A stretch of DNA of 64,000 nt from Thermodesulfobacteriota bacterium (GCA_049320885.1 JBMORA010000031.1:1-64000); one strand, 5' to 3'. Numbered from the stretch's first letter, positions 23,765 through 41,826 are shown. Notes: generated from the sequence alone by a model not told the origin. Made by a program: numbers and translations.

Positions 23765-24029
23765 TATCTCGCTTAGGTTCCATCAATTTGCGGTATACCT
23801 AACCGAATCGCAAAAACCTGTCAATGTGTAAGTTCAATCCCATGGTGGTGCAATCAGGGGAACCCGCGGATGGAATACGGATTGAATTCCTCGGGCGCTT
23901 GAGGTATGAATGGCGTAACAGCATACCCGGACAAACCACCGGGTCGCCCTCCCTGTCCAGGCGGATGGTTTGATGAAAATCCGCGGAACGGCCATCGGCA
24001 ACAACACGAACAACGAAACAAGGAAAATC

Positions 24030-27000
24030 ATGGAGAGTTCCGCCTGCATCCTCGGCATCGACATCGGCTCCGTCACCATTTCGGCGGCTGTGGTGGCGCC
24101 GGACAAAACCGTTCTCGATACCGCCTACCGTTTCCATTACGGAGATATCGCGACTCATCTGGAGGCCGTCCTGACGGGATTTTCCGGCAAGAGAATCTCG
24201 GCGGTTTCGGCAACCACTTCCACTCCCGGATATATTCATGCTGATTTCCGGTGCGACAACCGGATCGCCTTGATCGAGGGGGCGAAACACCATCACCCCG
24301 GCATCGGTTCGATCCTGGTGGTGGGCGGGGAAAAATTCGGCCTGATTCGGTTCGATGAAAACGGTAATTATTCCAGTTATAAATCCAATACTTCCTGTGC
24401 GGCCGGCACCGGCGCCTTTCTGGATCAGCAGGCCGCCCGGCTCAACCTCGGCGGAACCGAGGAATTGAGCCGCATTGCCTATGCAAACAAGGGGCAATTG
24501 CCGAAAATCGCCTCCCGTTGCGCCGTTTTCGCAAAAACGGATCTGATCCACGCCCAACAGGAGGGCTACCGCATCGAGGAAATCAGCGATGGTCTTTGTT
24601 ACGGGCTGGCAAAAAATATCGTGGACACGCTCCTGACCGGTCCCGCGCCCGTCGGCCCGATGCTCTTCTGCGGCGGGGTGTCGAAAAACAGGGCGGTGGC
24701 CGGCCATATCCGGCGCCTCACCGGAATGGACCTGATCACCGATGAAAACGCCCCTGTTTACGAAGCCATCGGCACGGCATTGCGGCTGATCCATACGCAA
24801 ACCGCCGCGTCCATGCTTGAAATTCGTCAAAATGGGGAAAATAACGGCGGCGGTTTGAGCTTCAAGCACCTGTTCACCCCCCCCCAAGCCGCTGCCGAAA
24901 AATACACCTATCCACCCCTTGCGCTGCGCCACTCCCGATACCCGGACTTTACCGATCATGAAAGCTATGAATATCTTCCCCGTCTTCGCAACGGCGATTT
25001 TCGGGTGGATGTGGATCTGTACAGTCTTCCGGAAAACGCGGGAACCTGTCCGATCCATCTCGGCATCGACATCGGTTCCACCAGCACCAAAGCGGTTCTT
25101 CTGGAAACCCGCGGGCAGGTCCTGGCCGGTTTTTATACCCGCACCGCCGGCCGGCCGGTGGAGGCGGTGTGCGCTCTGTTTGAAGCCGTGGACGATCTCG
25201 CCCGAAAAAGGAAAATCCGCTTCGAAGTAATCGGCGCCGGCACCACCGGTTCGGGCCGCAAATTCGTCGGACGCCTGATCAACGCCGATACCGTCATCGA
25301 CGAAATCACCGCCCATGCCAGGGCCGCCTGCGAATTGAACCCGGATGTGGACACCATCATCGAAATCGGCGGTCAGGATGCGAAGTTCACCACCCTTTGC
25401 AACGGAACGGTTTCCTTTTCCATCATGAACACGGTCTGCGCCGCCGGAACCGGAAGCTTCATCGAGGAACAGGCCAGGAAACTCGGCTGCTCCATCCATG
25501 AGTATTCCGCACGCACGGAAAATGTGCGCGCCCCCATGTCCAGCGACCGCTGTACGGTTTTCATGGAAAGAGACATCAATCACTACCTCAGCGAGGGCTA
25601 TACGACGGCGGAAGTCCTCGCATCGGTTCTGCATTCCGTAAGGGAGAATTATCTCCAGAAAGTGGCGGTTGAACGGAATATCGGCAAGACCATTCTGTTC
25701 CAGGGAGCCACGGCGAAAAACAAGGCCCTGGTGGCGGCCTTCGAACAACGCCTGGAAAAGCCCATCCTGGTTTCCCGGTACTGCCACCTGACCGGCGCAT
25801 TGGGGACGGCGCTCATGCTGGCCGACATGGGGAACGAACGCAGCACGTTCCGGGGCTTCGATATTTATAAACAGCAAATCCCCATCCGATCCGAAGTCTG
25901 CGAACTCTGCACCAATCACTGCAAGCTGACCCTGGCGCATCTGTCCGGGGAAACCGTCGCCTACGGCTTTCTGTGCGGCAGGGATTACGATGTCAAAAAA
26001 CGGATGGAAAACAACCCTTCCGGATTCGATCTGATCCGGTCCCGTAAATCCGCCTTTCGCGTTACCAGGGAGGACCGGTCGAACGATTCGCTTGCCGGTT
26101 CCGGAAACATCACCATCGGCATTCCGGCGGGCTTGTTTCTCGTGGAGGCCCTCCCCTTCTGGCGCCGTTTCTTCCATCAGCTCGGTTTCCGCACCCTTTC
26201 AAGCGAACGCTTCGATCAGGCCCTCCAGCAGGGCCGGCAACTCACCGGCGCCGAATTCTGCGCTCCCATCACGGCCATGCATGGTCACGTTCACCACCTG
26301 CTTGAAAAGGCGGATCATGTCTTCCTGCCGGCCTATCTGGAGATGCGCCAGAAAACCAAGGGCCTGCGAAGACAATTCTGCTATTATTCCCAATTTATGC
26401 CGGCCCTGGCCGATATCGTGGCGGAAAAGGACCGGAACCGGCTGCTGACTCCCGTGCTGCACTACCTGTACACGAGTTTTCATGCCCGGATGCAATTGTT
26501 CCAATCCCTGCGGACCATCGCTCCGACCCTTTCTTTTTTCGACATGTCGGCCGCATACGAAAGAGCCCGGGCCTTCGTCCGAAGGTCCGAGGACCGGCTG
26601 AAGGAGATCTACCGCAAGGAAACAGAGGCATCCAGTGACATCGGCGTCGTTCTGCTGGGAAGGCCCTATTCCATCCTGTCGCCTTCCATGAACAAGGGGA
26701 TTCCCTCCCTGTTCGGATCGCTGGGCATCAAGGCCTTTTTTCAGGACATGATTCCCTGCGAAGATCAATCCGTATCCTCCATCGCCCCCCTCCTGAAGGA
26801 AATCAGGTGGCATTACGGCGCGAAAATCCTGGAAGCGGCCGAAGTCATCGCCAAGACGGACGGATTGTACCCGGTGCTGGTCACTTCCTTCAAGTGCGCG
26901 CCGGATTCATTCGTCAAGGACTACTTTCAGAAAATCATGGCCGGCCATGACAAACCCTATCTGATTCTGGAGCTGGACGAACACGGCTCCACCGTGGGCT

Positions 27001-28349
27001 ACGAAACCCGCATCGAAGCAGCGATCCGCTCCTTTCGGAACCATGATTCGTCCAACCGGAAACCCGCGCGAAAACCCGCTCCGGCGGACTACCGCGGCAT
27101 CAATCCGGACCCGGCGAGGTCGCTTCTCGGGAAGACCGTCGTTTTGCCCAATTGGGATTCCCTGACCTGCCGCCTGCTGACCGCCAACCTCCAGCGGGAA
27201 GGCCTGAATGCCGTCCTGATGGATGAAACCGAGGAGTCCATCCGGAAAAGCCTGCGCCTGAACACCGGCCAGTGCATTCCGCTCAACGCCATCACCCAGG
27301 GGTTCGCGGAATGCATCCGGCGGCACGACCTGAACCCGGCGGAAACCGTTTTGTGGATGACCACCTCGAATACCTGTAGCCTCAGCATGTATCCGCATCA
27401 TATCAAGACGCTGCTGAACGCCATGGGGGGCGGCCTGGAACAAACCCGGGTATTCGCAGGGGAGTTGTCCTTCCGGGAGGTTTCCATCCGGGCGGCCGTC
27501 AATGCCTATTTTGCCTATATGTTCGGCGGCATGGTCCGGAAAATGGGATGCAAGGTGCGGCCCTATGAAATGGAAAGAGGCCGCACCGATCAGGTCATCC
27601 GTCAGGGCATGGACATATTGACCGCGGCGTTCAGGGGGAACATGAGCAAAATGGAAGCGCTGGAACGAGTGGTGACGGAATTTGAACGGATTGAAATCCG
27701 GCGGGTGAAAAAACCCCTGGTGGCTGTGTTCGGCGACCTGTATGTCAGGGATAACGATGTCATGAACCAGGGCCTGATCCGCTTCATCGAGGAAAACGGC
27801 GGCGAAGTCATCACGACCCCCTACCTCAGCTATGCGAAAATGGTGGCCGGGCCCTATTTCCGGAAATGGCTCCGGGAAGGCCTCTATGTAAGCCTCCTGT
27901 CCTATAAAGCCCTGTTGTCCACCCTCAGCCTGCGGGAAAAAGTCTATTACCGCTATTTCGAGCGCATCCTGAAGGAACCGGCTTTCGATTACGACACCCC
28001 GCCGGAATCCATTCTGTCCGCTTACAATATCAAAATCGAAAACACGGGCGAGTCCCTGGACAATATCTTGAAGGTGTTTTACATCCAGAAACACTATCCC
28101 GATGTGGCCCTTTTTGTCCAGGCCAGTCCCTCTTTCTGCTGCGCTTCGCTGATCACCGAAGCAATGGCCGGGGCCATTGAGCGCAACACCGGCGTACCGG
28201 TGGTTTCCATCACCTACGACGGCACCGGCGGGAGAAAAAACGAGGCCATTATCCCCTATCTCACGTACCGTCGCCGGTCTTCAGCTGGAAAGACGCCAGA
28301 AACGGGTCCGTATGGGGACTTGCCAGCACATCTTCTCCGATCTTCATGA
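24030..28349 (+). CDS. Fused double CoA-activase plus reductase/dehydratase-like protein (PlsA/Ger-like; candidate plasmalogen or ether-lipid synthase)
   Basis: Two ASKHA activase units (GIDIGSV..CAAGTGAF..CAVFAK; GIDIGSTSTK..GGQDAK..CAAGTGSF..CTVF), CELCTNHC, then domains with EFCAP, FCYY, LLGRPY, FKCAPD, GQCIP, SFCC; about 1440 aa. Confidence 0.85.
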   Translation: MESSACILGIDIGSVTISAAVVAPDKTVLDTAYRFHYGDIATHLEAVLTGFSGKRISAVSATTSTPGYIHADFRCDNRIALIEGAKHHHPGIGSILVVGGEKFGLIRFDENGNYSSYKSNTSCAAGTGAFLDQQAARLNLGGTEELSRIAYANKGQLPKIASRCAVFAKTDLIHAQQEGYRIEEISDGLCYGLAKNIVDTLLTGPAPVGPMLFCGGVSKNRAVAGHIRRLTGMDLITDENAPVYEAIGTALRLIHTQTAASMLEIRQNGENNGGGLSFKHLFTPPQAAAEKYTYPPLALRHSRYPDFTDHESYEYLPRLRNGDFRVDVDLYSLPENAGTCPIHLGIDIGSTSTKAVLLETRGQVLAGFYTRTAGRPVEAVCALFEAVDDLARKRKIRFEVIGAGTTGSGRKFVGRLINADTVIDEITAHARAACELNPDVDTIIEIGGQDAKFTTLCNGTVSFSIMNTVCAAGTGSFIEEQARKLGCSIHEYSARTENVRAPMSSDRCTVFMERDINHYLSEGYTTAEVLASVLHSVRENYLQKVAVERNIGKTILFQGATAKNKALVAAFEQRLEKPILVSRYCHLTGALGTALMLADMGNERSTFRGFDIYKQQIPIRSEVCELCTNHCKLTLAHLSGETVAYGFLCGRDYDVKKRMENNPSGFDLIRSRKSAFRVTREDRSNDSLAGSGNITIGIPAGLFLVEALPFWRRFFHQLGFRTLSSERFDQALQQGRQLTGAEFCAPITAMHGHVHHLLEKADHVFLPAYLEMRQKTKGLRRQFCYYSQFMPALADIVAEKDRNRLLTPVLHYLYTSFHARMQLFQSLRTIAPTLSFFDMSAAYERARAFVRRSEDRLKEIYRKETEASSDIGVVLLGRPYSILSPSMNKGIPSLFGSLGIKAFFQDMIPCEDQSVSSIAPLLKEIRWHYGAKILEAAEVIAKTDGLYPVLVTSFKCAPDSFVKDYFQKIMAGHDKPYLILELDEHGSTVGYETRIEAAIRSFRNHDSSNRKPARKPAPADYRGINPDPARSLLGKTVVLPNWDSLTCRLLTANLQREGLNAVLMDETEESIRKSLRLNTGQCIPLNAITQGFAECIRRHDLNPAETVLWMTTSNTCSLSMYPHHIKTLLNAMGGGLEQTRVFAGELSFREVSIRAAVNAYFAYMFGGMVRKMGCKVRPYEMERGRTDQVIRQGMDILTAAFRGNMSKMEALERVVTEFERIEIRRVKKPLVAVFGDLYVRDNDVMNQGLIRFIEENGGEVITTPYLSYAKMVAGPYFRKWLREGLYVSLLSYKALLSTLSLREKVYYRYFERILKEPAFDYDTPPESILSAYNIKIENTGESLDNILKVFYIQKHYPDVALFVQASPSFCCASLITEAMAGAIERNTGVPVVSITYDGTGGRKNEAIIPYLTYRRRSSAGKTPETGPYGDLPAHLLRSS

Positions 28350-29823
28350 TCTGATAGAGCCGGCTGCCGACAATGAAAAATCTCGCCTTGCCGTTACCGC
28401 CTTTCGGCATCTTGGCGGAGGCGGGAAAGGCGAACTCGATTTCGCGGCCGTAATGGCTCCGGATGGAAACATCCTGTTCGCTTTTGACGATTCCCTTGAT
28501 GTTGTTCATGGCGCCGTTGACGGCGCCGTCCATCAGCACATTGTAATCCGCCTGGCGCATCAGTTCATCGGGATAGTCGGCATAGCCCACCAGGCAGGCG
28601 GAATCCTCCTTGTCCACCATATACATGAAAATATCCACGGGGCCCACCGGGGTATCGAGGGTCTGTTTAGTGGAAACGGCTTTTCCGGGTAAAATGATGG
28701 AAAACCCGCCTTCGGGAGGCGAAAACCGGGTGCCTTCCAGCACCGTCGGATCAGGGGGCAATTCCTCCACCAGGCCATCCGCTCTCGGAATCGCGGCAGC
28801 ATCCGTCCGGTCTTTTCCCGATCCGCGACAGTCGATCCAGGACTCCAGGTCCCTTGTTGTGTGTCTGCCCCGGGCCCTGAAACAGTCCTTGTCCGCCGCG
28901 ACGATCTCCACCCGGATGTCGGGAGCGGTGATATACATGTTCAGAGCCGCGAGACTGGCGGTGTATTTACCGTATTTTTCATGATACCGGTCCTGAGCTG
29001 CCTTGACTTTTTCCAGTTCCTCGTCGATGGCGGCGACAAATGCCCGGTTGCGGTAGTCGACGAAACCGGGGATGGCGAAAACAGCCATGATGCCGGAAAA
29101 AGCGGTAACCCAGACCAGACCGACACCAATAAGCATCGCCATGGCGGTTCGATCCGCAGTTGCCGGATATTGTTCCCGGAGGGATTTTTCATCCCGGACG
29201 ACGTACCGGATGAATTCGACAACCGCCATCAGGGACGGTACGAAAGTCCAGAAAAAAAGCAGGTAGAGGACTCCCTGGACATATTGTTTCAGATAGAATT
29301 TATGTCCGCCGATTCCCCCGGTGAAAAAGGTCAGCAACAGCAGGATGGACTTGGCGGGCGGGGATTTCAGGGCCAGGCCGCAATGGGGGCAGGTTTTCGC
29401 GGTTTTTTTGGCGATCCGGCCGCAGGCTTCGCAATAGATATCATCCGGTCCTTTCACTGCGGCTTGAACGGTTGCTTGAACCGGAAGGGGTGCCGATTGC
29501 GGTTTCACCGCCGCAACCGCCGCTTCTTTTTCCGTAATGGCGGGTTTCGGCTTGCCCGGCTTCGGGGCCGCGCTTTTTTTCGCCGGCAGGTCCTGTTCCT
29601 TCTGGATGGCGCAGACGGCCCCGGCCTTTTGAAAGGCTTCCTGAATTTTTTTGCAGGTAGCGAGATCGGCGTTTTTTTTCACCACCACAACCTTGCCGGA
29701 AAAGAAGGATTCAAGGGTGGCGGGGTTTTTATACATTCCGGACAGCGCGGTTTTGACGTTTTGGACGGAATGCCCGTCGGTGATTTCCCCCTTGAAGACG
29801 ATTCGATAGGTTTCCGTTTCCAT
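28261..29823 (-). CDS. Multidomain membrane protein: N-terminal alpha/beta domain, Zn ribbon, TM2 domain, pilin-like domain, C-terminal periplasmic domain
   Basis: CEACG..CPHCG; FTGGIGGHKFYL (TM2); GIMAVFAIPGFVDYRNRA (pilin-like helix). Start set at ATG 29823 (GGAG RBS); ATG 29853 is an alternative. Confidence 0.75.
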   Translation of the reverse strand: METETYRIVFKGEITDGHSVQNVKTALSGMYKNPATLESFFSGKVVVVKKNADLATCKKIQEAFQKAGAVCAIQKEQDLPAKKSAAPKPGKPKPAITEKEAAVAAVKPQSAPLPVQATVQAAVKGPDDIYCEACGRIAKKTAKTCPHCGLALKSPPAKSILLLLTFFTGGIGGHKFYLKQYVQGVLYLLFFWTFVPSLMAVVEFIRYVVRDEKSLREQYPATADRTAMAMLIGVGLVWVTAFSGIMAVFAIPGFVDYRNRAFVAAIDEELEKVKAAQDRYHEKYGKYTASLAALNMYITAPDIRVEIVAADKDCFRARGRHTTRDLESWIDCRGSGKDRTDAAAIPRADGLVEELPPDPTVLEGTRFSPPEGGFSIILPGKAVSTKQTLDTPVGPVDIFMYMVDKEDSACLVGYADYPDELMRQADYNVLMDGAVNGAMNNIKGIVKSEQDVSIRSHYGREIEFAFPASAKMPKGGNGKARFFIVGSRLYQIMKIGEDVLASPHTDPFLASFQLKTGDGT

Positions 29824-29883
29824 ATCCGCTCCGCTGTTGATCATTCTGCTCATGATTGTGCGCCGCTAAAATTCTTTTTCCGG

Positions 29884-31248: not shown

Positions 31249-33375
31249 TCACATAAAGCGGTAGGTAATGAACCCCATTATACTGTATTGATTGTATATT
31301 TCCGCAATCTGGTCATAACGGGCCGCGGCGTTGAAATGCCATGCGCGGTGAAATCGTTTCAGATAGTCCAGACTTCCGTTGGCTCCGATCCTGGATATGG
31401 TTTCAGCCGAATGTTCTTCCGAAAACTGATAGCTGGGGCCGCCGCTCAGGGATATCCGTTCGTCCGGTCCGAAGGCATAGTCCAATTGAAGATTCAGGGC
31501 GTTGTTGAGGAATAGTCGCGGACTGTAATACCCCCCCGGCAGCGGCGAAGCCTCGGTGTCCTCAAATCCCCCGTGATCCTCGGAATAATGGGTGAGGGAA
31601 AACAGATCCGAAATCGAGACGGTGAAAACGTCTCTTTCCATCACCGGCAGTTTCGCCTTGGCTCCGATCCCGTAAACGGCGTTGTTTCCGGCAGTATCGG
31701 CGCTGATGAAACCGGCATGGGGTGTCGCCTCTATATGAAAACGCTTATCCGTGTACGAGATCTCGCAAAAGGCGGTGTTGGATCGGGCGGCGCCGATTTT
31801 GGCCCCGGTGACGGGGTCCGTGCCGCCGCCGATGGAAAGCAGGGAATCGGTCTTGATCTCCCGCCGGATTCCGGCGGACAGCTCCAGATCCGATCGCCGG
31901 AACAGATACTGCAACAGGAACTCCCCGGCGCCCTCGGCTTCTTCCATGGCATGATAGGATGCCGAGGCTTCCAGGTTCCGTTCCGGATCCAGCCGGTATT
32001 GGAGATCCAGCGTAAAAAACCGGCCGTGAATATCCTCCTTGTCCCGCCAATATTTTTCCAGGCCGATTTTCCCGCCGCAGGTGAGAAACGGTGTCGGGTC
32101 CCCGCTGCCGCCCGTGGCCAACTGAAAGCCGCTCAGTTCATAATTCTCCTCATCACTGCCTTGATCGAAAAACCGGACGCCCGCCATGACTCGCGGCTCA
32201 CGGCCTTTCATCAAATCCCGTTCCAGGGAGGATGCTCCGATGTTTCCGGGTTGATAGGCCAGGGCCTTACGGGAATGATGGATGGCCATGTCGTTGTCGC
32301 CTTTCCAGGCGTAGGCATTGGCCAGCCCCTGGTGGGCCGCGGGATTACCGGGCTGCCGCTGCAGGATGACATGGTACTGGGCAATGGCCTTGTCCAGGTT
32401 TTCCTTCCGGGAGCCCAGCAGCCGGGCGTATTTCAAGCGGATATCGACCCTGCCCGGATGCTTCCCGACCAGTTTTTCATATTGGCCGGCGGCCTGTTCG
32501 TAAGTGGTCTTTTCACCGGCCAGCAGCTCCGCATATGCCAGCCTGGTATCCAGACGATCCCGTCTCTTCAACACGGTTTCGAACTGGATTTTGGCGCTGT
32601 CGAAATGACTGCCGGTCCTGGCCAGGGCCTTGGCATATTCCTCCCGCATATCCAGATCTCCCGGGTATCGGTCCACCAGCTTGCGGTACTGGGAAACCGC
32701 ATCTTTTCGATGGGCGGCTTCTTTTGCATACAGGCGGGCCAGTTGGAGATTGATTTCCCGGTCCCCGGGATATTTCCGGGCGATTTTTTCATATTCGGCG
32801 ATGGCCTCCTTGCGGTAGCGGCCATCCCAGAGCAGCAGTTTCCGGTATTCGGCGTTGAGGACTTTGTTTTCGGGGTTGGAAGCGCCCAGTTTCCGATATT
32901 CTTCCACCGCCTCGCCCATGGTTTTTTTATCCGCCGCCAGCAATTTGGCCAGTTTATGACGATTGACCCGGTCCTCCCGGACCGCCAGGCCCATGCGGTA
33001 ATATTTGATGGCGTCCTTTTTACGGTAGGCATACCGGGACCACTCGAGGAACCCGGCCTGTTTGAAGGCGATCTCGGCATCCTTTGGAAACCGCTCCAGA
33101 TAGCGGTCATATTGCTCGATGGCCTTATCGGTCAACCCCTCGGCTTCGTAGGCCTTGCCCAGCAGCCGCATGGCTTCCGGATCGTCCGGCTTGATTTCGA
33201 CAAGTTTCTCAAAGGCTTCGATGGCGGCCTTGTAATTGTGAATGCGCATATTGGCCTTGCCCCTGGACATGTACCAGGACTCCTTCAGCTCCCCGCCGTA
33301 AAGCGGCCCGGCCGAGAGCAGCAGCGACCAGAGAAAAACCAGGCGAAAAGCCGTCAGAGAAAGCGGTCCCTTCAT
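31249..33375 (-). CDS. TPR plus C-terminal beta-barrel outer-membrane protein, BcsC-like exopolysaccharide exporter
   Basis: Signal peptide, about 10 TPR-like repeats, C-terminal amphipathic beta-strands containing GGYYSP and ending FITYRFM; 4 bp downstream of the synthase gene. Confidence 0.75.
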   Translation of the reverse strand: MKGPLSLTAFRLVFLWSLLLSAGPLYGGELKESWYMSRGKANMRIHNYKAAIEAFEKLVEIKPDDPEAMRLLGKAYEAEGLTDKAIEQYDRYLERFPKDAEIAFKQAGFLEWSRYAYRKKDAIKYYRMGLAVREDRVNRHKLAKLLAADKKTMGEAVEEYRKLGASNPENKVLNAEYRKLLLWDGRYRKEAIAEYEKIARKYPGDREINLQLARLYAKEAAHRKDAVSQYRKLVDRYPGDLDMREEYAKALARTGSHFDSAKIQFETVLKRRDRLDTRLAYAELLAGEKTTYEQAAGQYEKLVGKHPGRVDIRLKYARLLGSRKENLDKAIAQYHVILQRQPGNPAAHQGLANAYAWKGDNDMAIHHSRKALAYQPGNIGASSLERDLMKGREPRVMAGVRFFDQGSDEENYELSGFQLATGGSGDPTPFLTCGGKIGLEKYWRDKEDIHGRFFTLDLQYRLDPERNLEASASYHAMEEAEGAGEFLLQYLFRRSDLELSAGIRREIKTDSLLSIGGGTDPVTGAKIGAARSNTAFCEISYTDKRFHIEATPHAGFISADTAGNNAVYGIGAKAKLPVMERDVFTVSISDLFSLTHYSEDHGGFEDTEASPLPGGYYSPRLFLNNALNLQLDYAFGPDERISLSGGPSYQFSEEHSAETISRIGANGSLDYLKRFHRAWHFNAAARYDQIAEIYNQYSIMGFITYRFM

Positions 33376-33379
33376 AGCG

Positions 33380-36300
33380 TTATGATCCTTCTTTCAGGCG
33401 GAATCCGACGCGAAACACCAGCGGCGCCATTTTCTGTTGATAAACAAGTTCCATTTCCATGGTCCCGGCCTCCTGGTTTCCCAACATCCATTTTTCGTTC
33501 CCTTGAATTGCCGGGGTGAAAACCAGAAATCCCCTGCCGGCCGCGGACCGGTTCCGCAGAAGGGCGGCGACCCGCCGCCGGCCGTTGGCCAGGCGCATGA
33601 AAGTAAGGCTTTTATATCGGACCTCGGAGCGTTTCAAGACCATTGAGGAAGAAAAGCAGGAAAAAATGCCCCGGATGAAATAAAACCCCATCAGGAGATT
33701 GCTGCGGGTGTGTTCCCCGTGGACGTCTTCCCAGGTGGCCGGGTCCGCGAAGGTGCGCAGCAGGAGTTGATTGCGATCCCCGGGGTCCCGGAATTGGAAA
33801 CAAAATCCGCACCGGCTGCGGCCGCCTTTTTCCCGGTCGTGATAGACCAATCTTGCGGGAATGCGCAGCGGCTCCGCTGCGAACAGGGTCAACTCCACCG
33901 CCCCGGGAATCCGGTCCTCCGGTCCGGTCCGGAAGGACAAACCCGTGAGGCTGATGTCGCTGGTGGCGGCGCTGAGCGAGACACCACCGGACGTGAGGGT
34001 GAACGGAATGGAAACCCGCAGTCTGTCGGAAGCGCGCCTTTGGGGACGCTCCCAGGCAACCAGCAGGGCCGCCGAAAGCAGCAGCATATTGTAAACGGCC
34101 CATCCCAGGTTGAAAAGATAGGCATCCTTTTCGATTTCGAAATAATAGAATTCCGCCACGCCCTTGATGATGGCCACGGCGTTGATCACGGCCATCAGCA
34201 GCGTGACGGCGGAGGAGGAGAAATCAAACCGGCGCCGGTCCGAGACGATGCCCTTGGGGGTCACCTTGAAGCCCAGGCTTCCGGGCAGCAGCAGGGAGAA
34301 CATGGACAGAAACAGCGGGAAGCAGACCGCCTTCTCGTAAATCACGCCCCAGAACATCCGGGGCCATTTGCGCAAAAGCGCTCCCGAGAGCAGGGGCAGG
34401 CAGATCATGTAGGGCAGCATGTAGGCCAGCAGCACCGATACATCCGCCAGAATCGGATGGAGATGAAACAGCAGATAATACAACGGCGTGATCCAGAAGA
34501 TGACCCGCACCACAGGAAAAAAGAAGTAATACAGGGAGGCGAAATAGCCGAACCGATGCCGAAGGCCCAGGCCTTTCCGGACCAGGGGATTGTCGCGGAA
34601 AAAAATCTGCAGGCAGCCCTGCATCCAGCGGCGCCGCTGCACGATATAGGAGGAGTAGTTTTCCGCGGTCAGGCCCACGGCGAGATCCTTGTCCACGAAG
34701 ACCGATTCGTAGCCCCTGGCGTGGAGATGCTGACTGCTGTGAATATCCTCGGTGATGCTCATCAACTGGAAGCCGCCGATATGCTCAAGCGCCGATCTCC
34801 GGAACACGGCCCCGCTGCCCACGAAAAAGGCCCCTTTCCATCCGTCCCGGCCCCCCTGGATTCCGTGGTTGAACATGTCCTGCTCGTTGGGGATCAGGCC
34901 TTCGCAATGAAAGGCGCGCTGAAAAATATCCGGATTGTAGAAATGGTGGGGGGTCTGGACAACGCCGACTTCGGAATTCTGGAAAAAAGGCACGGTTTCA
35001 TCCAGGAAGCTGGCCACCGGAATGTGATCGGTATCGAAGACCACCACCAGTTCCCCCCCGGTCAGGGACAGGGCGTTGTTCAGATTGCCGGCCTTGGCGT
35101 GTTGTTTCGGCCCTTTGATATAACGGGCACCGCAACTCCCGGCCAGCGCGGCCACTTCTTGCCGGTGGCTGTCGTCCAGCACGAAAACGTTCTTGTTCCG
35201 ATACCCCATGGAACAAGCGGCCAGCAGGGTTTTTTCGAGGATGTCGAGGCTTTCGGAATAGATGGGAATGTACACATCCACGGATGGGCAGTAGTTTTCC
35301 GGTTGTTGCGGCAGCTCCCGTTTCCGCTTTTTCAGACCGACCTGCAGCAGCAACAGGAAAACCGTGGACAGGCAATAGAATTCGGCGGCCAGCAGGGAAA
35401 TGCTGATAAAGGGACCGAGGGCTTCCAGAAAATTGAGCGAACACGCAACCCGCCAATTCAGGTATCGCAGACACAGGGCGAAGCCGGTGATCAGGAATCC
35501 GGCCTTGAAAAACGCATACCGGTCGAGGCCTTCCCAGCGGGAAAGCAGAAACAGGGCCAAACAGGCCATGGAGAGATGCAAAGGGAAATGGCTCCGAAAA
35601 CCGCGAAAATCAAACGGTTTCAGGAAGTCGAAAAAATCCGTCAGATCACGCGCCACATGAACCTGCAGCGCCCGATCGAACCACAGCCAGTTGTGGAGAT
35701 AATACGGAGTATCCTTCCCGGCCCTGGCCTTCCGCCATAACTCGCCGAGCTTGTGCTCACTCAATTGCCGGGCAAGATCCGGATCACCGATGGCGGCCAG
35801 GGAACGCACCGTGGCGTACAAAGGGAGCGCCTCGAACCGGGACTTCGATTTGCCGTCGATGGTATAGCGGTCATCGAACCGCCGCCGGTTTTGCCATTCG
35901 GATTTCCAGAAAGCCAGCATCCGGCCGATCAACTCGGTTTTGTTCCGGCCATGCCAGTAATCATCCACGGCCACCCGCCAGTAAATGGGAAACGCATCGT
36001 AACTGAAATCGGCCTTCCGCCCCTTTCCCGGTTTCATCAGCGTCGGTTTACCGGTCTTGCGGTCCAGATAGACGATTTCCGGCGGCAGGGGCAGTTTTTC
36101 CTGCAGGAAAATCCATTCCAGGATTTCATAGGAGGAAACCACCAGTTCCTTCCAGGGATGTTCCTCATCCACCTCGGCAAACAATTCATAGGCGTAGGGC
36201 GCCAGATAGGCAACGTGGACGGTGGGAAACGCCTCCTGGAGACTCCAGTTCCCGGCGGTGGGATAGTATTTGTCCTGGAGCCGAATGACCTCGTTTCTCC

Positions 36301-36766
36301 AGATGTCCTGAATGATCCTACGGGCGTCATCCCGGTATGCAGCCGTGGAGAATTTTTCCGCCGCCAAAAGGAGGGCCAGGGCGATATCCGTATCTGCATC
36401 CGTGGCGGAATTGCGGTCCTGTTTCCATTTCCAGGCGAACAAGTGATCCCCCCGGACCATCAGATTCTCCCGTGTCCACTGGTAGACCTGTTTGAAGGTC
36501 CGGTGATCGTTGGACCAGACCGCCCGCAGCAGGGCGTAGCCCTGCCCCTCCGAGGTCGTGATGTTGTTCTCGTCGAGACTGATCACCCGACCTTCCCGGA
36601 TATACGTGTATTTGTAGAAACTCCACAGTTCGTGAAGGCTGTTGACCAGGGCATGGGATTTCCCGGCCGGCGCCGCCGCCAGGGGAAGCGGGGAAGGCAG
36701 GAGCCAGAAGGCGGCGGCCAGCAGCGGGATGGTTACAAGTGGATGTGACAATACAATTCTGTTCAT
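33380..36766 (-). CDS. GH8 endoglucanase (BcsZ-like) fused to cellulose synthase catalytic subunit (BcsA-like GT2) with PilZ
   Basis: GH8: TTSEGQGY, NSATDAD, FSYDA. GT2: DDS, HAKAGNLN, FDTDH, QTPH, FFVGS, ITED, QRRRW, FKVTPK. PilZ: RASDR and DISLTG. Confidence 0.92.
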   Translation of the reverse strand: MNRIVLSHPLVTIPLLAAAFWLLPSPLPLAAAPAGKSHALVNSLHELWSFYKYTYIREGRVISLDENNITTSEGQGYALLRAVWSNDHRTFKQVYQWTRENLMVRGDHLFAWKWKQDRNSATDADTDIALALLLAAEKFSTAAYRDDARRIIQDIWRNEVIRLQDKYYPTAGNWSLQEAFPTVHVAYLAPYAYELFAEVDEEHPWKELVVSSYEILEWIFLQEKLPLPPEIVYLDRKTGKPTLMKPGKGRKADFSYDAFPIYWRVAVDDYWHGRNKTELIGRMLAFWKSEWQNRRRFDDRYTIDGKSKSRFEALPLYATVRSLAAIGDPDLARQLSEHKLGELWRKARAGKDTPYYLHNWLWFDRALQVHVARDLTDFFDFLKPFDFRGFRSHFPLHLSMACLALFLLSRWEGLDRYAFFKAGFLITGFALCLRYLNWRVACSLNFLEALGPFISISLLAAEFYCLSTVFLLLLQVGLKKRKRELPQQPENYCPSVDVYIPIYSESLDILEKTLLAACSMGYRNKNVFVLDDSHRQEVAALAGSCGARYIKGPKQHAKAGNLNNALSLTGGELVVVFDTDHIPVASFLDETVPFFQNSEVGVVQTPHHFYNPDIFQRAFHCEGLIPNEQDMFNHGIQGGRDGWKGAFFVGSGAVFRRSALEHIGGFQLMSITEDIHSSQHLHARGYESVFVDKDLAVGLTAENYSSYIVQRRRWMQGCLQIFFRDNPLVRKGLGLRHRFGYFASLYYFFFPVVRVIFWITPLYYLLFHLHPILADVSVLLAYMLPYMICLPLLSGALLRKWPRMFWGVIYEKAVCFPLFLSMFSLLLPGSLGFKVTPKGIVSDRRRFDFSSSAVTLLMAVINAVAIIKGVAEFYYFEIEKDAYLFNLGWAVYNMLLLSAALLVAWERPQRRASDRLRVSIPFTLTSGGVSLSAATSDISLTGLSFRTGPEDRIPGAVELTLFAAEPLRIPARLVYHDREKGGRSRCGFCFQFRDPGDRNQLLLRTFADPATWEDVHGEHTRSNLLMGFYFIRGIFSCFSSSMVLKRSEVRYKSLTFMRLANGRRRVAALLRNRSAAGRGFLVFTPAIQGNEKWMLGNQEAGTMEMELVYQQKMAPLVFRVGFRLKEGS

Positions 36767-37936: not shown

Positions 37937-37974
37937 TTGACTTTTTATGTTTCCAAATTATATTGTGCACGATA
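37937..37974 (+). promoter_or_regulatory. Sigma70 promoter (TTGACT-N16-TATATT) with overlapping palindrome TATTGTGCACGATA, putative MarR/OhrR operator
   Basis: Motifs read directly upstream of the DUF1499 and MarR genes. Confidence 0.55.
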
Positions 37975-38040
37975 ATTTTGAACGCCATATAAATGAAGAA
38001 CCCCAACGGGCCTGACCACAACCAGAAAGGATAGCCCCAA

Positions 38041-38478
38041 ATGAACAAACCGATACTGCTCACCGTCTGCACCATGATGCTGGCCGGCTGCGCGGGCAGT
38101 CCCCCTAAACACATCGGCCTGCGGGACGGCCGTCTGGCGCCCTGCCCCGGCAAACCCAATTGCGTCATCAGCGACGCCAACGATGCGGAACATTATATCG
38201 ACCCCATCCGGTACACCGGCGACCGGAAAGCCGCCATGCAGCGGCTCAAAGCCGTGGCGATCTCCTTTGACCGGAGCCGCATCGTGTCCGCAGACGAGCG
38301 CTACCTGCACATGGAATTCAAATCGCTGGTGTTCCGGTTTGTCGACGATGTGGAATTTTATTTTCCCGACGAACCCCTCATCCACGTCCGCTCCGCCTCG
38401 CGGATCGGCTATTCCGATCTGGGGGTCAACCGGAAACGGGTGGAGGCCATCCGCGCGAAATTCAATGAAGGCAAGTAA
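38041..38478 (+). CDS. DUF1499 family lipoprotein
   Basis: Lipobox LAGC; CPGKPNCV, FVDDVEF, RSASRIGYSDLGVNRKR. Confidence 0.88.
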   Translation: MNKPILLTVCTMMLAGCAGSPPKHIGLRDGRLAPCPGKPNCVISDANDAEHYIDPIRYTGDRKAAMQRLKAVAISFDRSRIVSADERYLHMEFKSLVFRFVDDVEFYFPDEPLIHVRSASRIGYSDLGVNRKRVEAIRAKFNEGK

Positions 38479-38526
38479 CCACAACCGATTCCGGGGAAAT
38501 TTCAGGGATCGGGCAAGGGGGCTGCG

Positions 38527-39003
38527 ATGAACCGCGACGAACTGCTGCGCCTGGACAACCAGCTGTGTTTTCTCCTGTACGCGACCTTCCGGAAAATCGC
38601 CGGGCTCTACCGGCCGCTGCTGGATAAACTGGGAATCACCTATCCCCAATATCTGGTGATGCTGGTGCTGTGGGAGCATGGCCCCCTTTCGGTGGGTGAA
38701 ATCGGGGCCCGCCTGCACCTGGACTCCGGAACCCTCACGCCCCTGCTGAAACGGCTGGAAAAACAGGCGCTGGTCCACCGGAATCGCTCGGCGGAGGATG
38801 AACGCAGGGTCACCATCCGCCTGACGGAAGCGGGCGCGGCCATGAAGGCGTCGGCCTACAGTATCCCGGAAGCCATGATCTGCAACAGCGGCGTGACCGC
38901 GTCCCAGTATTGGACCCTTAAAAAAGAACTCGATTCCCTGCTGGCTCAAATCCCGACATCCGGACAATGTAAAAAGGAAACCATGCATCATGAGCATCCG
39001 TGA
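38527..39003 (+). CDS. MarR family regulator, OhrR-like
   Basis: LDNQLCFLLY with sensing Cys, TYPQYLV, LDSGTLTPLLKRLE, DERRV. Confidence 0.88.
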   Translation: MNRDELLRLDNQLCFLLYATFRKIAGLYRPLLDKLGITYPQYLVMLVLWEHGPLSVGEIGARLHLDSGTLTPLLKRLEKQALVHRNRSAEDERRVTIRLTEAGAAMKASAYSIPEAMICNSGVTASQYWTLKKELDSLLAQIPTSGQCKKETMHHEHP

Positions 39004-40240
39004 CATGATGGGCTGCAGGCTCGCCTGCTCGACACTGTTACTGCTGATCCAACTGCTCTGGAACCTGCTTCCGGGACAGCCGGAAGCCGCGCTGTCGGCC
39101 TCACTTGGAGTGGACAACCTGGTTTTTGAGGGGATCGAAACCAATTATGCCGGCGATTACGACAAGGCCCTGAATCTGTTCCAGCAGGTGGAGACGCTGG
39201 CGCCGGACCATCCGGCCGGGGCTTTTTACCAGGCGTCGGTGCTGTTTTGGAAAAACAGTCTGGACCCCAACAACCCGCGTTACGACGACGACATCCGGCG
39301 CCTGCTGGAGCGGGCTATCGCCGTGTCCCAAAAACGCCTGGACAAACAGGCGGACGATCTGGATGCCCTGCATTACATGGGACTTGCCTATACGTATCTG
39401 GGGCGCATGGATGCCCACCGGGGCCGATTGTACGAAGGCGGCGTCCAGGGGGAAACCGGCCGGAAATATCTGGAAACCGCCATGCAACTTTACCGGAACA
39501 GCGCCTCCGGGAATGCCGGGAAAAACGAAAACGCCGCCTTGGTGTATGAAGACATCCACTTCCCCTACGGCGCCTATGTCTATTTCGCCGGACGGCTTCC
39601 CCGGTTTCTCCGGATGTTCAATTTTTTGTGGTTCATCCCCCGGGGTTCCGCTCCGGAAGGCATCGCGGCCCTGGAAAAAGCCCGGAAAAACAGCCGCCTG
39701 CACCATCTTGGCGCCACCCATCTGCTGGTAAGCATCTACGCCCATCTGGAACCCGGCAAAACGAGGGAAGCCCTTGCATTGTCCACGGAATTGACCCGGC
39801 GGTTTCCCGACAATCCGGTCCTGGATCTGCAGCAGGCGCGCCTGTTGCTGCTCAACGGGAAATACGAGGAAGCCCGCGCCCATACCCGGTCCATCCTAAA
39901 CAAGGTGCGGACGGCCCGTCTCAATTACGATGCCTGGGTTCTCAATGCAACCCGTCTGATCATTGCTGAGATCGACATCCACAAAGGGGAACTCCAGGCA
40001 TCGACGGCCGCGCTCGCCGACATCGAATCCTCGGCCAAACCCGAGATCGCCGCCGTGCTCTCGCCCCAGATCCTGCTGCTGAAGGGCATGATCGAGGACC
40101 TGAAGGGCTTGCGTCGGGAGGCGGTCCGCTATTACAAAGCCGTTCTCGATCAGGAAGACCGTTTTCGCAACCGGATGGCGGAGAAGGAGGCGCAACGGAG
40201 AATCGAGCAGGCGTTTTCCCCGGGTCTTCCCAGGGGTTGA
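38990..40240 (+). CDS. Exported TPR-like helical protein
   Basis: Hydrophobic N-terminus and several TPR-like helices (ALHYMGLAY, FPDNP); start uncertain. Confidence 0.7.
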   Translation: MSIRDMMGCRLACSTLLLLIQLLWNLLPGQPEAALSASLGVDNLVFEGIETNYAGDYDKALNLFQQVETLAPDHPAGAFYQASVLFWKNSLDPNNPRYDDDIRRLLERAIAVSQKRLDKQADDLDALHYMGLAYTYLGRMDAHRGRLYEGGVQGETGRKYLETAMQLYRNSASGNAGKNENAALVYEDIHFPYGAYVYFAGRLPRFLRMFNFLWFIPRGSAPEGIAALEKARKNSRLHHLGATHLLVSIYAHLEPGKTREALALSTELTRRFPDNPVLDLQQARLLLLNGKYEEARAHTRSILNKVRTARLNYDAWVLNATRLIIAEIDIHKGELQASTAALADIESSAKPEIAAVLSPQILLLKGMIEDLKGLRREAVRYYKAVLDQEDRFRNRMAEKEAQRRIEQAFSPGLPRG

Positions 40241-40254
40241 ATCCGGTCCTTCGG

Positions 40255-41088
40255 TCAAGATCCGGTTTTCTTCCCCCGGGCTTTTTTCACCGCATGATCC
40301 AGGACCCTTTCCACAACCCCGGGCAGCCAGCGTTTGATGAGATAAACCAGACGTCCATCCATGCCGGGGATGATCATGAAGCGATCTTGACTCATCCCCC
40401 TCATCATTTCCCGAGCCACATCCCGGGCGGACATGAGTTTCGCCGTCTGGGAAATGGCCCGGGTTTCCGGCGGCTTGCCGATATTCTCCAAGGCGTATCC
40501 CGGCGTGTCCGTATCCGGCGGGCACAGCACGGATACCCGGATCCCCATGGGCTTGAATTCATTTCGCAGAACTTCCGACAAACCGACCACGGCGAACTTG
40601 GAGGCACAATAATCCGCATAACCGAAAAGACCCAGGAACCCGGCGATGGAGGCCACATTGACGATATGGCCGCCGCCCTTTTCCTGCATTTGGGGCGCAA
40701 GGACGGCGATGGTGTTCCATGTCCCGTATACATTGATCTTCATGGTTTCGTCGAACTGCTCAAAGGATATGCTTGCGAAATAATCCGGTTTGGCCCTTCC
40801 GGCTGAATTGATCAGGATGCCCGGAATCCCGAACTCCGTAACGGCCCTGGTCATCACCTGTTTCACCGCTTCCGGATCCGCCACATCCAGCTGGTAATAA
40901 CCGCATGGCCGGGCATCGCTTGCCCGGTGCCGCCGAATCTGCCGGGCAGCCTCCTCCAGCGGACCGATACGCCGGGCAAAAATCACCACATGGGCTCCCC
41001 CGGCGGCCATCAATTCGGCTGCCGCCAGACCGATCCCGCTGGACCCGCCGGTGATATAAACGACCCTATCCTCGAAGCCTTTTTTCAT
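40255..41088 (-). CDS. SDR oxidoreductase, 3-ketodihydrosphingosine-reductase-like subgroup
   Basis: TGGSSGIG, NSAG, YCASK, PPDTDTPG..EN..KP.ET; ATGA overlap with the upstream gene. Confidence 0.85.
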   Translation of the reverse strand: MKKGFEDRVVYITGGSSGIGLAAAELMAAGGAHVVIFARRIGPLEEAARQIRRHRASDARPCGYYQLDVADPEAVKQVMTRAVTEFGIPGILINSAGRAKPDYFASISFEQFDETMKINVYGTWNTIAVLAPQMQEKGGGHIVNVASIAGFLGLFGYADYCASKFAVVGLSEVLRNEFKPMGIRVSVLCPPDTDTPGYALENIGKPPETRAISQTAKLMSARDVAREMMRGMSQDRFMIIPGMDGRLVYLIKRWLPGVVERVLDHAVKKARGKKTGS

Positions 41089-41729
41089 GCCGGTGGAGGA
41101 TCGCATGCTTCCAATGCTCCCGATTCCTGACCGGACTGGATTCTCAAAACAACCGTTTTATTCGCGGGAATCCGGGAACGGATCTCCGGAAGGGCCACCG
41201 GCCGGTCATCCAGCCGCGCCTCCGCCGCCGTCTCCGAAGCGGCGTCCAGGGCATCCAGGATTTCCGGCAGCAGTTTCGGCGGGACATGAACTCCCTGCCG
41301 CAGCACGCGCGGACCGATCTCACTGACAATCAGGTTGAACAGCTTCAGGGTCACCATTCCGGCCCCCCGGCTTTTCCCGGATTGGCCGGCGTGCAGGGAT
41401 ACATTGTCCCGGAATACGGAATAGTTTCCCGAACGCCGGAAAGACGCGCCCACCAGACCGGGCATGGCTGCCGATAAGGCCAGGGTGTCGCCGCCACTGA
41501 GCATGGCGGTTGCCAGGTCGTCCACGGCCCTGCCGTTCAGGAAGATGGTCTGAATCCGGTTCTCCGCATAGGCCGGTTCCAGACGCAGATATCCGTTGAG
41601 GAAATCCCGGATGGACAGCGTTTCCGCTATCGGAATCTGCACCCCCTTGGATAAAAAAGGGTAAAAAATCGAAAAAAACGCCGGTTGTTCCAGCAGGATG
41701 CTCAGGCAGGGAGTTGGGGTTGATTCCAT
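41085..41729 (-). CDS. Hypothetical protein with an internal ubiquitin/MoaD-like segment
   Basis: IQTIFLNGRAVDDL...LSGGDTLALSAAMPG; lies between AOR and the SDR gene; start uncertain. Confidence 0.65.
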   Translation of the reverse strand: MESTPTPCLSILLEQPAFFSIFYPFLSKGVQIPIAETLSIRDFLNGYLRLEPAYAENRIQTIFLNGRAVDDLATAMLSGGDTLALSAAMPGLVGASFRRSGNYSVFRDNVSLHAGQSGKSRGAGMVTLKLFNLIVSEIGPRVLRQGVHVPPKLLPEILDALDAASETAAEARLDDRPVALPEIRSRIPANKTVVLRIQSGQESGALEACDPPPA

Positions 41730-41779
41730 GACGCCTTCGATGGCAACGGGTGCCGGTTCCTTCAAGTCGCACGGGGATC

Positions 41780-41805
41780 GCCGGGAGCCCCGGAAGGCTC
41801 CCGGC
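41780..41805. other. GC-rich hairpin downstream of AOR (no U-tract)
   Basis: GCCGGGAGCC-ccggaa-GGCTCCCGGC. Confidence 0.6.
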
Positions 41806-41826
41806 ACCCGTGCTTCGCTTGGTGTT

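What the first reader, a model, noticed from the sequence alone, without database searches (positions are those of the whole stretch)
33380..36766. Single-polypeptide glucanase-synthase: GH8 (BcsZ-like) fused to a BcsA-like cellulose synthase
Seen: one uninterrupted 1128-aa ORF with a signal-peptide-like N-terminus, a GH8 domain retaining TTSEGQGY, NSATDAD and SYDA, then a processive GT2 with all BcsA hallmarks (HAKAG, DxD, QTPH, FFxGS, TED, QRRRW, gating loop FKVTPK) and PilZ. Known: in characterised bcs operons BcsZ is a separate periplasmic protein. Inference: only three hydrophobic helices lie between GH8 and the GT domain, an odd number that puts GH8 in the periplasm, tethered at the glucan channel exit. 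The enzyme could trim or size the chain as it is made, giving cello-oligosaccharides or short glucan. I do not know a characterised example, but I could not search for one.
Basis: partly seen in the sequence, partly recalled or inferred. Interest (0 to 1): 0.85.

Follow-up and report, generated by a model that had tools for sequence, protein, structure and literature searches.

The report
Two-gene cellulose exporter with built-in cutter
This bacterium appears to make and export a cellulose-like polymer with only two proteins: a synthase that carries its own cellulose-cutting enzyme, and an outer-membrane pore predicted to plug directly onto the synthase's exit, without the helper subunit that textbook systems need.

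Summary
The fusion is real. It is conserved across Nitrospirota, Myxococcota, Bdellovibrionota, Fibrobacterota and Desulfobacterota. Catalytic residues of both enzymes are invariant (111 of 111), and charge bias and a model place GH8 in the periplasm.

The unit is a two-gene system. A TPR/16-strand BcsC-like porin follows in 44 of 44 loci with room, and BcsB was not found in this genome or 48 others. A complex prediction (0.65, best control 0.00) docks the porin's first TPRs on the synthase's periplasmic loops plus GH8. Some relatives join everything into one ORF of 1,500-2,000 aa.

Best reading: c-di-GMP-gated secretion of cellulose, with GH8 as tethered trimmer and docking platform in place of BcsB.

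The signal-GH-3TM-GT2 layout has a precedent (GH17-GT2 NdvB). Ten literature searches found no GH8-BcsA fusion. This scan noted the architecture before in a Nitrospira-type genome.

The parts
33380..36766 (-). GH8-BcsA-PilZ-PilZ fusion gene, 1128 aa (P0001)
   Evidence: AlphaFold2 model pLDDT 89, pTM 0.78
36674..36766 (-). Signal-peptide-like N-terminus (aa 1-31), variable among homologues
   Evidence: 107 of 111 rows have a hydrophobic core, 100 a small-X-A/G site after it, 11 look lipobox-like (my own proxies, SignalP not run)
35627..36670 (-). GH8 (alpha/alpha)6 domain, aa 33-380; catalytic E73 (36548-36550) and D257 (35996-35998)
   Evidence: E73 sits in the column where CelA 1cem has E and 1kwf has Q; D257 aligns to CelA D278; both 111 of 111; VIA Z 39.6, rmsd 2.3, 324 aligned to 1kwf
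35582..35683 (-). Fixed-length junction, aa 362-395
   Evidence: W362-P395 spacing is 33 in 111 of 111; conservation 0.74 against 0.73 for GH8
35339..35581 (-). Three helices equal to BcsA TM2-TM4; TM1 is missing
   Evidence: superposition on 4p00_A starts at model 386 = chain 35; mean K+R in successive loops 0.4, 2.3, 0.05, 2.8
34562..35287 (-). Processive GT2 catalytic domain, aa 494-735
   Evidence: D578, D580, D674, Q710, R711, R713, W714 invariant in 111 of 111
34052..34561 (-). TM5-TM8, gating loop, and family-conserved periplasmic loops (H768/H770; F876-E879, A882)
33791..34042 (-). PilZ 1 (R911xxxR915; D937xS939xxG942)
   Evidence: Pfam E 4e-13; motif counts
33395..33640 (-). PilZ 2 (R1046xxxR1050; N1072xS1074xxG1077)
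   Evidence: both Arg 111 of 111; hhalign to PilZ 1 probability 94.5, E 7.7e-8, two controls 0.1 or less; no Pfam hit in P0001 itself, best homologue E 7e-4
31249..33375 (-). BcsC-like exporter gene, 708 aa, 4 bp downstream: signal peptide, TPR superhelix, 16-stranded beta-barrel
   Evidence: Pfam BCSC_C E 8e-10; model pLDDT 95.8 with 16 long strands; best folds BcsC 9b8a and 6tzk, VIA Z 30.9, rmsd 5.5, 354 aligned
32917..33291 (-). Conserved N-terminal TPR cap of the exporter (mature aa 1-125), predicted to dock on the fusion
   Evidence: complex prediction 0.65 against best control 0.00; conservation
31258..32193 (-). Outer-membrane beta-barrel of the exporter

Best explanation
A two-protein, BcsB-independent secretion system for a beta-1,4-glucan (cellulose). 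Step 1 (inferred from motifs): c-di-GMP binds PilZ 1, perhaps also PilZ 2, and frees the gating loop. Step 2 (homology and invariant motifs; activity not shown): the GT2 polymerises UDP-glucose and pushes the chain through TM3-8. Step 3 (predicted): the first TPRs of the BcsC-like porin sit directly on the periplasmic loops around the channel exit and on the flank of GH8, so the chain passes to the TPR rail and 16-strand pore without BcsB. Step 4 (inferred): the rigidly attached, catalytically intact GH8 both helps form that docking site and cuts stalled or stray chain, or releases finished chain, at one enzyme per synthase.
For: Exporter gene follows in 44 of 44 loci with room, of 54. BcsB (PF03170) not found in the own genome, 98% complete, nor in 48 genomes bearing the fusion. 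TM1, part of the BcsB-binding groove (TM1-3; PMC8892547 section 7), is absent. Complex prediction: 0.65, best of 3 controls 0.00; the mark was reached by 116 of 157 solved and 2 of 215 mismatched pairs, and these counts hold only roughly with my alignments; runs agree in at least 91% of contacts; partner pLDDT at least 84. Exporter interface residues are more conserved than the rest of the cap (0.81, n=22, against 0.66, n=103; p 0.002). The synthase loop residues are kept in fused but mostly not in unfused synthases (E879: 42 of 43). One-ORF versions join fusion and exporter. 12 of 20 channel residues match R. sphaeroides BcsA, against 11 of 20 for E. coli BcsA. The genome has 18 GGDEF matches.
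Against: No activity, product or expression data. Scores are below the curated cut-offs for BcsA (525 of 699) and BcsZ (92 of 299). N412 and E477, shared by both proven synthases, are replaced (A743; S/T/V808). The fusion-side interface is not significantly more conserved than the rest of the chain (0.84 against 0.75, p 0.07). Completeness of the 48 genomes was not given, and a divergent BcsB substitute elsewhere could be missed. 3 of 54 loci carry a broken fusion (L005, L011, L050).
Confidence: 0.63

Rival explanations
1. Oligosaccharide factory: GH8 sits over the exit and cuts every chain to cello-oligosaccharides or short glucan, which leave through the pore or stay in the periplasm.
For: One intact GH8 per synthase on a fixed 33-residue junction. 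NdvB/Orphan uses the same layout to process its chain (PMC10237404 abstract and passages).
Against: A TPR rail and BcsC-type barrel are kept in 44 of 44 loci, with total length varying from about 526 to 1230 aa, as expected of a periplasm-spanning guide for polymer. The TPR cap is predicted on the exit loops themselves. GH8 enzymes invert and so cannot cyclise as GH17 does (recalled).
Confidence: 0.15
2. Same machine, other linkage: a mixed-linkage (1,3;1,4) or otherwise non-cellulosic beta-glucan, with GH8 acting as a lichenase.
For: Family-wide changes at channel positions N412 and E477. The GH8 model fits a beta-1,3-1,4-glucanase (5xd0, Z 39.4) as well as CelA (39.6). The fused synthases form a long-branch clade.
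Against: All signature motifs and 8 of 11 stacking residues match R. sphaeroides BcsA. The top fold and sequence hits are BcsA, BcsC and cellulases.
Confidence: 0.13
3. GH8 is mainly a structural stand-in for BcsB, inserted after an uncleaved first helix that acts as TM1 or as the BcsB anchor; or GH8 is clipped off and roams like ordinary BcsZ.
For: Some superpositions start at model residues 20-26 against the end of BcsA TM1, though pLDDT there is 47-61. GH8 residues 45-54 and 348-350 lie in the predicted interface.
Against: N-termini vary in length (22-111 aa) and mostly carry cleavage-like sites. Catalytic residues are invariant. The junction is as conserved as the domain and fixed in length, unlike a cleavable linker.
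Confidence: 0.09

Closest known systems
Canonical Bcs systems (E. coli bcsABZC, R. sphaeroides BcsA-BcsB; PDB 4p00, 9b8v, 3qxf, 6tzk)
   Same: BcsA fold and motifs, PilZ control, a GH8, a TPR plus 16-strand porin.
   Different: No BcsB, although its C-terminal tail is described as indispensable (PMC8892547); no TM1; GH8 is covalently attached, whereas E. coli BcsZ is reported not to associate stably with BcsA (10.64898/2026.08.24.745826 Discussion); second PilZ; shorter exporter (708 against 1157 aa).
Pseudomonas NdvB/'Orphan' GH17-GT2 cyclic beta-1,3-glucan synthases (PMC10237404)
   Same: Signal peptide, periplasmic hydrolase, three TM helices, GT2, further TM helices in one chain.
   Different: GH8, not GH17; BcsA motifs and PilZ intact here and absent there; paired with an outer-membrane polymer channel.
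Known Bcs fusions BcsAB and BcsZC (PMC7112194)
   Same: Core Bcs genes do fuse.
   Different: The passages seen name no BcsZ-BcsA fusion; that survey assumed bcsA and bcsB in every functional locus.
BcsB-less cyanobacterial XcsA/XcsB/XcsC (PMC12430437, PMC8892547)
   Same: A PilZ synthase working without BcsB, with an endoglucanase.
   Different: They use HlyD and TolC and a separate endoglucanase; here the only conserved neighbour is BcsC-like.

Membership tests
BcsA cellulose synthase | D,D,D,Q(Q/R)xRW, HAKAG, QTPH, TED, FxVTxK motifs | tested here: met
BcsA cellulose synthase | BcsA fold with TM3-8 channel and C-terminal PilZ | tested here: met
   VIA Z 38.9, rmsd 3.3, 646 aligned to 4p00_A
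BcsA cellulose synthase | Curated score cut-off TIGR03030 | tested here: not met
   525 against 699.1 bits
BcsA cellulose synthase | Product is beta-1,4-glucan | not testable with these tools
   12 of 20 channel residues shared with R. sphaeroides BcsA; N412 and E477 differ
GH8 | (alpha/alpha)6 barrel with catalytic Glu and Asp | tested here: met
BcsZ | Separate soluble periplasmic protein; NF008305 cut-off | tested here: not met
   fused; 92 against 299 bits; fused GH8s form their own clade, SH-aLRT 100, apart from E. coli BcsZ in a quick tree
Type I-III Bcs systems | bcsB present | tested here: not met
   0 of 1 own and 0 of 48 other genomes; control rings in E. coli
Type II Bcs systems | bcsG pEtN transferase | tested here: not met
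   0 of 1 own genome
BcsC | Signal peptide, TPR array, 16-stranded barrel | tested here: met
   below the NF008520 cut-off (59 of 858), so BcsC-like rather than an orthologue by score
NdvB/Orphan | Signal-GH-3TM-GT2 topology | tested here: met
NdvB/Orphan | GH17 domain and no PilZ | tested here: not met
   GH8 and two PilZ
Cyanobacterial Xcs | HlyD-like partner gene beside the synthase | tested here: not met
   no HlyD among 18 neighbours scanned; only the BcsC-like gene recurs across the loci
PilZ (second copy) | Binds c-di-GMP | not testable with these tools
   both motifs conserved; fold by hhalign

The most novel reading that the evidence does not exclude
A class of cellulose secretion machine in which the synthase hands its chain straight to the outer-membrane porin: the porin's first TPRs cap the channel exit on a surface built from synthase loops and a fused cellulase, and BcsB is abolished. 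In some lineages the whole trans-envelope machine is one gene, probably cut into two proteins by signal peptidase at an internal signal sequence.
Probability: 0.5. Interest if true: 0.85.

Novelty: new variant of a known kind. Interest (0 to 1): 0.72.

Why it matters
It makes three open questions of the cellulose field testable in a two-gene (or one-gene) system: what the operon cellulase is for, why BcsB is needed, and how the chain gets from synthase to porin. A direct synthase-porin contact is not among the structures my fold searches returned, and I know of none. A cultured, sequenced carrier exists (Nitrospira moscoviensis, ALA57435.1), and the system may contribute to the matrix of nitrifier and sediment biofilms (inference). 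It could also be a compact cassette for making cellulose or defined glucans in laboratory strains.

Tried and rejected
Frameshift or chimera: rejected. Cytoplasmic GH8: rejected on charge bias and signal-like N-termini. Dead GH8: catalytic residues invariant. Standalone close GH8 relatives P0125 and P0130 look like fragments (1.9-kb contig; labelled partial).

One origin of the one-ORF forms is undecided: the tree needs 3 changes, but holding them together is not rejected (p-AU 0.214; 27 of 43 fused rows used). The careful synthase tree did not finish; the quick tree was used, and it leaves the sister group of the fused clade open.

My first channel-residue mapping had offset errors and was redone. 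Expression: no RNA holder listed. Plasmids: 93 records match GH8 only, none covers 80% of the GH8-junction query. The promoter and terminator scan gave nothing usable directly upstream. G+C of the two genes equals that of their neighbours. Pfam does not see PilZ 2 in P0001.

Full report
OBSERVATION. The minus-strand ORF 33380-36766 is 1128 aa without a stop. Pfam gives GH8 47-296, GT2 494-775 and PilZ 909-1002, and the quoted motifs are present. A homologue search scored 7,999 candidates and found 336 hits. All 120 listed, the query and 119 others at 52-75% identity, carry both GH8 and GT2. I aligned 111 of these 120, dropping nine shorter ones (A1). A genome scan gave 54 loci from Nitrospirota, Myxococcota (including cultured Anaeromyxobacter), Bdellovibrionota, Fibrobacterota and a Desulfosudis-labelled MAG. 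In 53 of 53 loci that cover it, the junction lies in one alignment piece. Three of 54 loci are broken elsewhere in the gene (L005, L011, L050). Contigs of a second study bridge this genome's junction without indels; run X1 may be the source and is not counted.

TOPOLOGY. The AlphaFold2 model (pLDDT 89, pTM 0.78) superposes on BcsA 4p00_A from model residue 386 = chain residue 35 (Z 38.9), so the three helices are TM2-TM4 and TM1 is missing. Mean K+R counts in successive loops are 0.4, 2.3, 0.05 and 2.8, which reads out-in-out-in and puts GH8 in the periplasm. 107 of 111 N-termini have a hydrophobic core and 100 a cleavage-like site (proxies only). The GH8-TM2 junction is fixed at 33 residues in 111 of 111 and as conserved as GH8 itself, so it is probably rigid.

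CATALYTIC SITES. E73 falls in the column where CelA 1cem has E and 1kwf has Q, and D257 aligns to CelA D278 (the role of D278 as base is recalled; PMC8892547 gives E55/D243 for BcsZ). Both are invariant, as are the GT2 residues. Of 20 channel residues listed for R. sphaeroides BcsA, 12 are identical here and 11 in E. coli BcsA (hand-mapped). N412 and E477, shared by both proven enzymes, are replaced throughout this family, so linkage stays open.

SECOND PILZ. Residues 1043-1124 carry both c-di-GMP motifs and align to PilZ 1 (probability 94.5; controls 0.1 or less). It is missing or altered in L001, L002, L048 and L054 and in the one-ORF forms, so it is accessory.

THE REAL UNIT IS TWO GENES. 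Four bases downstream lies a 708-aa gene whose model (pLDDT 95.8) is a TPR superhelix plus a 16-strand barrel, best matching BcsC. It follows the fusion in 44 of 44 loci with room; 10 loci end too soon. No other neighbour is shared widely. BcsB was not found in the own genome (98.2% complete) or in the 48 genomes searched out of the 54 loci (completeness not given). BcsG was not found in the own genome, and the fused GH8 is its only GH8. The cassette is patchy: 2 of 151 genomes of the own order, both of the own genus, and 13 of 251 Nitrospirota. The same 13 hold all synthases of this clade in that sample. This suggests lateral spread (inference).

WHAT REPLACES BCSB. I folded fusion residues 33-905 with the exporter's first 125 mature residues. 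The score was 0.65 and the best of 3 controls 0.00. The mark was reached by 116 of 157 solved and 2 of 215 mismatched pairs (roughly valid with my alignments); runs agree in at least 91% of contacts; partner pLDDT is at least 84. The cap touches the synthase's periplasmic loops (445-448, 768-773, 875-882) and GH8 (45-54, 348-350). This supports binding and does not show it. Cap interface residues are more conserved than the rest of the cap (0.81 against 0.66, p 0.002). On the fusion side the excess is not significant (0.84 against 0.75, p 0.07), but the loop residues are kept in 43 fused and mostly not in 15 unfused synthases (kin are not independent). The TPRs behind the cap vary widely in number.

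ONE-GENE FORMS. L019, L022, L028 (86-91% alike; P0123 equals L022) and P0122, P0124, P0126 (43-51% to each other and to the first group) join fusion and exporter into 1517-1996 aa. All four groups drop PilZ 2 and keep a hydrophobic segment ending in a small-X-Ala site before the cap (read by eye). Cleavage there would give the two usual proteins (inference). One origin or several is undecided.

ORIGIN. Fused synthases form one clade (43 of 60 rows, SH-aLRT 99, quick tree). Their GH8s form one clade apart from E. coli BcsZ, nearest to uncharacterised GH8s that are often attached to PMT-like membrane domains. Of 10 unfused Nitrospirota synthases fetched, 7 begin directly at the TM2-equivalent helix (by eye), and no BcsB appeared among 48 of their neighbours; tandem PilZ tails are common among unfused synthases of this phylum. 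A TM1-less, N-out synthase would accept an upstream secreted hydrolase by simple fusion (inference; the tree does not show these to be the sister group).

LITERATURE. Ten searches found no description of a GH8-BcsA fusion; the library lacks most subscription papers. Seen as passages: PMC9693552, 10.1101/814665, PMC7112194 (BcsAB and BcsZC fusions only), PMC12430437, PMC5165239, 10.1101/2020.02.11.943704, PMC6252331, PMC13375341, PMC5070118. Seen more fully: PMC8892547 passages and first part of section 7; 10.64898/2026.08.24.745826 passages and Discussion; PMC10237404 abstract and passages. The last is the true precedent for the layout. I opened no supplements; those of PMC7112194 and the 752-sequence GH8 table of the 2026 preprint could list this fusion. 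The architecture is in databases under automatic names, and this scan noted it before in a Nitrospira-type genome (unchecked note, re-tested here). That note calls the pore miniaturised; here the barrel is a full 16 strands and the TPR part is what is shorter.

VERDICT. A real, conserved variant of the Bcs system that I could not find described. Shown: the ORF, domains, conservation, gene pairing, and BcsB not found. Predicted: topology, folds, direct docking. Inferred: product, c-di-GMP control, role of GH8. New variant of a known kind; interest 0.72.

Noticed in passing
L019:9953-14962, L022:9983-14968, L028:10010-14995; P0122, P0124, P0126; L012 cut at contig end: Single ORFs of 1517-1996 aa joining GH8, synthase, PilZ, an internal signal-like helix, TPRs and the barrel: a whole secretion system in one gene.
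   Followed up: partly
P0144, P0150, P0151, P0154, P0186, P0193 and others: A family of about 870-aa proteins with a PMT-like (GT-C) membrane domain followed by GH8; also GH8 behind a Ser/Thr kinase (P0156) or an LPG-synthase TM domain (P0149).
   Followed up: no
P0244; ESM Atlas row 3: Other GT2/GH8 fusions: GT2 before GH8 in P0244 (959 aa) and a 61-member cluster, commonest in Actinomycetota. Synthase-GH8 fusion probably arose more than once.
   Followed up: no
L094-L103: Unfused, mostly TM1-less BcsA-like genes of Nitrospirota without BcsB nearby; neighbours include BcsS (L101), BcsG with DgkA (L102), a galactose-oxidase-like protein (L103) and unknown 230-aa genes.
   Followed up: partly
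window 44114-46918 (+): 934-aa ORF without Pfam or NCBIfam hit in a lower-G+C stretch; the Atlas model resembles DUF5719-bearing proteins.
   Followed up: partly
window 23799-29853 (-): Run of poorly annotated genes (792, 204, 395 aa without hits; 530 aa with zinc ribbon and TM2), overlaid by a 1459-aa antisense frame at 23970-28349.
   Followed up: no
window 37945-41807 (-): Four ORFs without family hits (399, 260, 209, 240 aa) around a short-chain dehydrogenase, upstream of the fusion; not matched at the same place in the congener locus L104 for the two tested.
   Followed up: no
G000 C1:323161-324120 and C35:1437-2249: Two other, distant GT2 synthase-like genes in the same genome (27-29% identity).
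   Followed up: no
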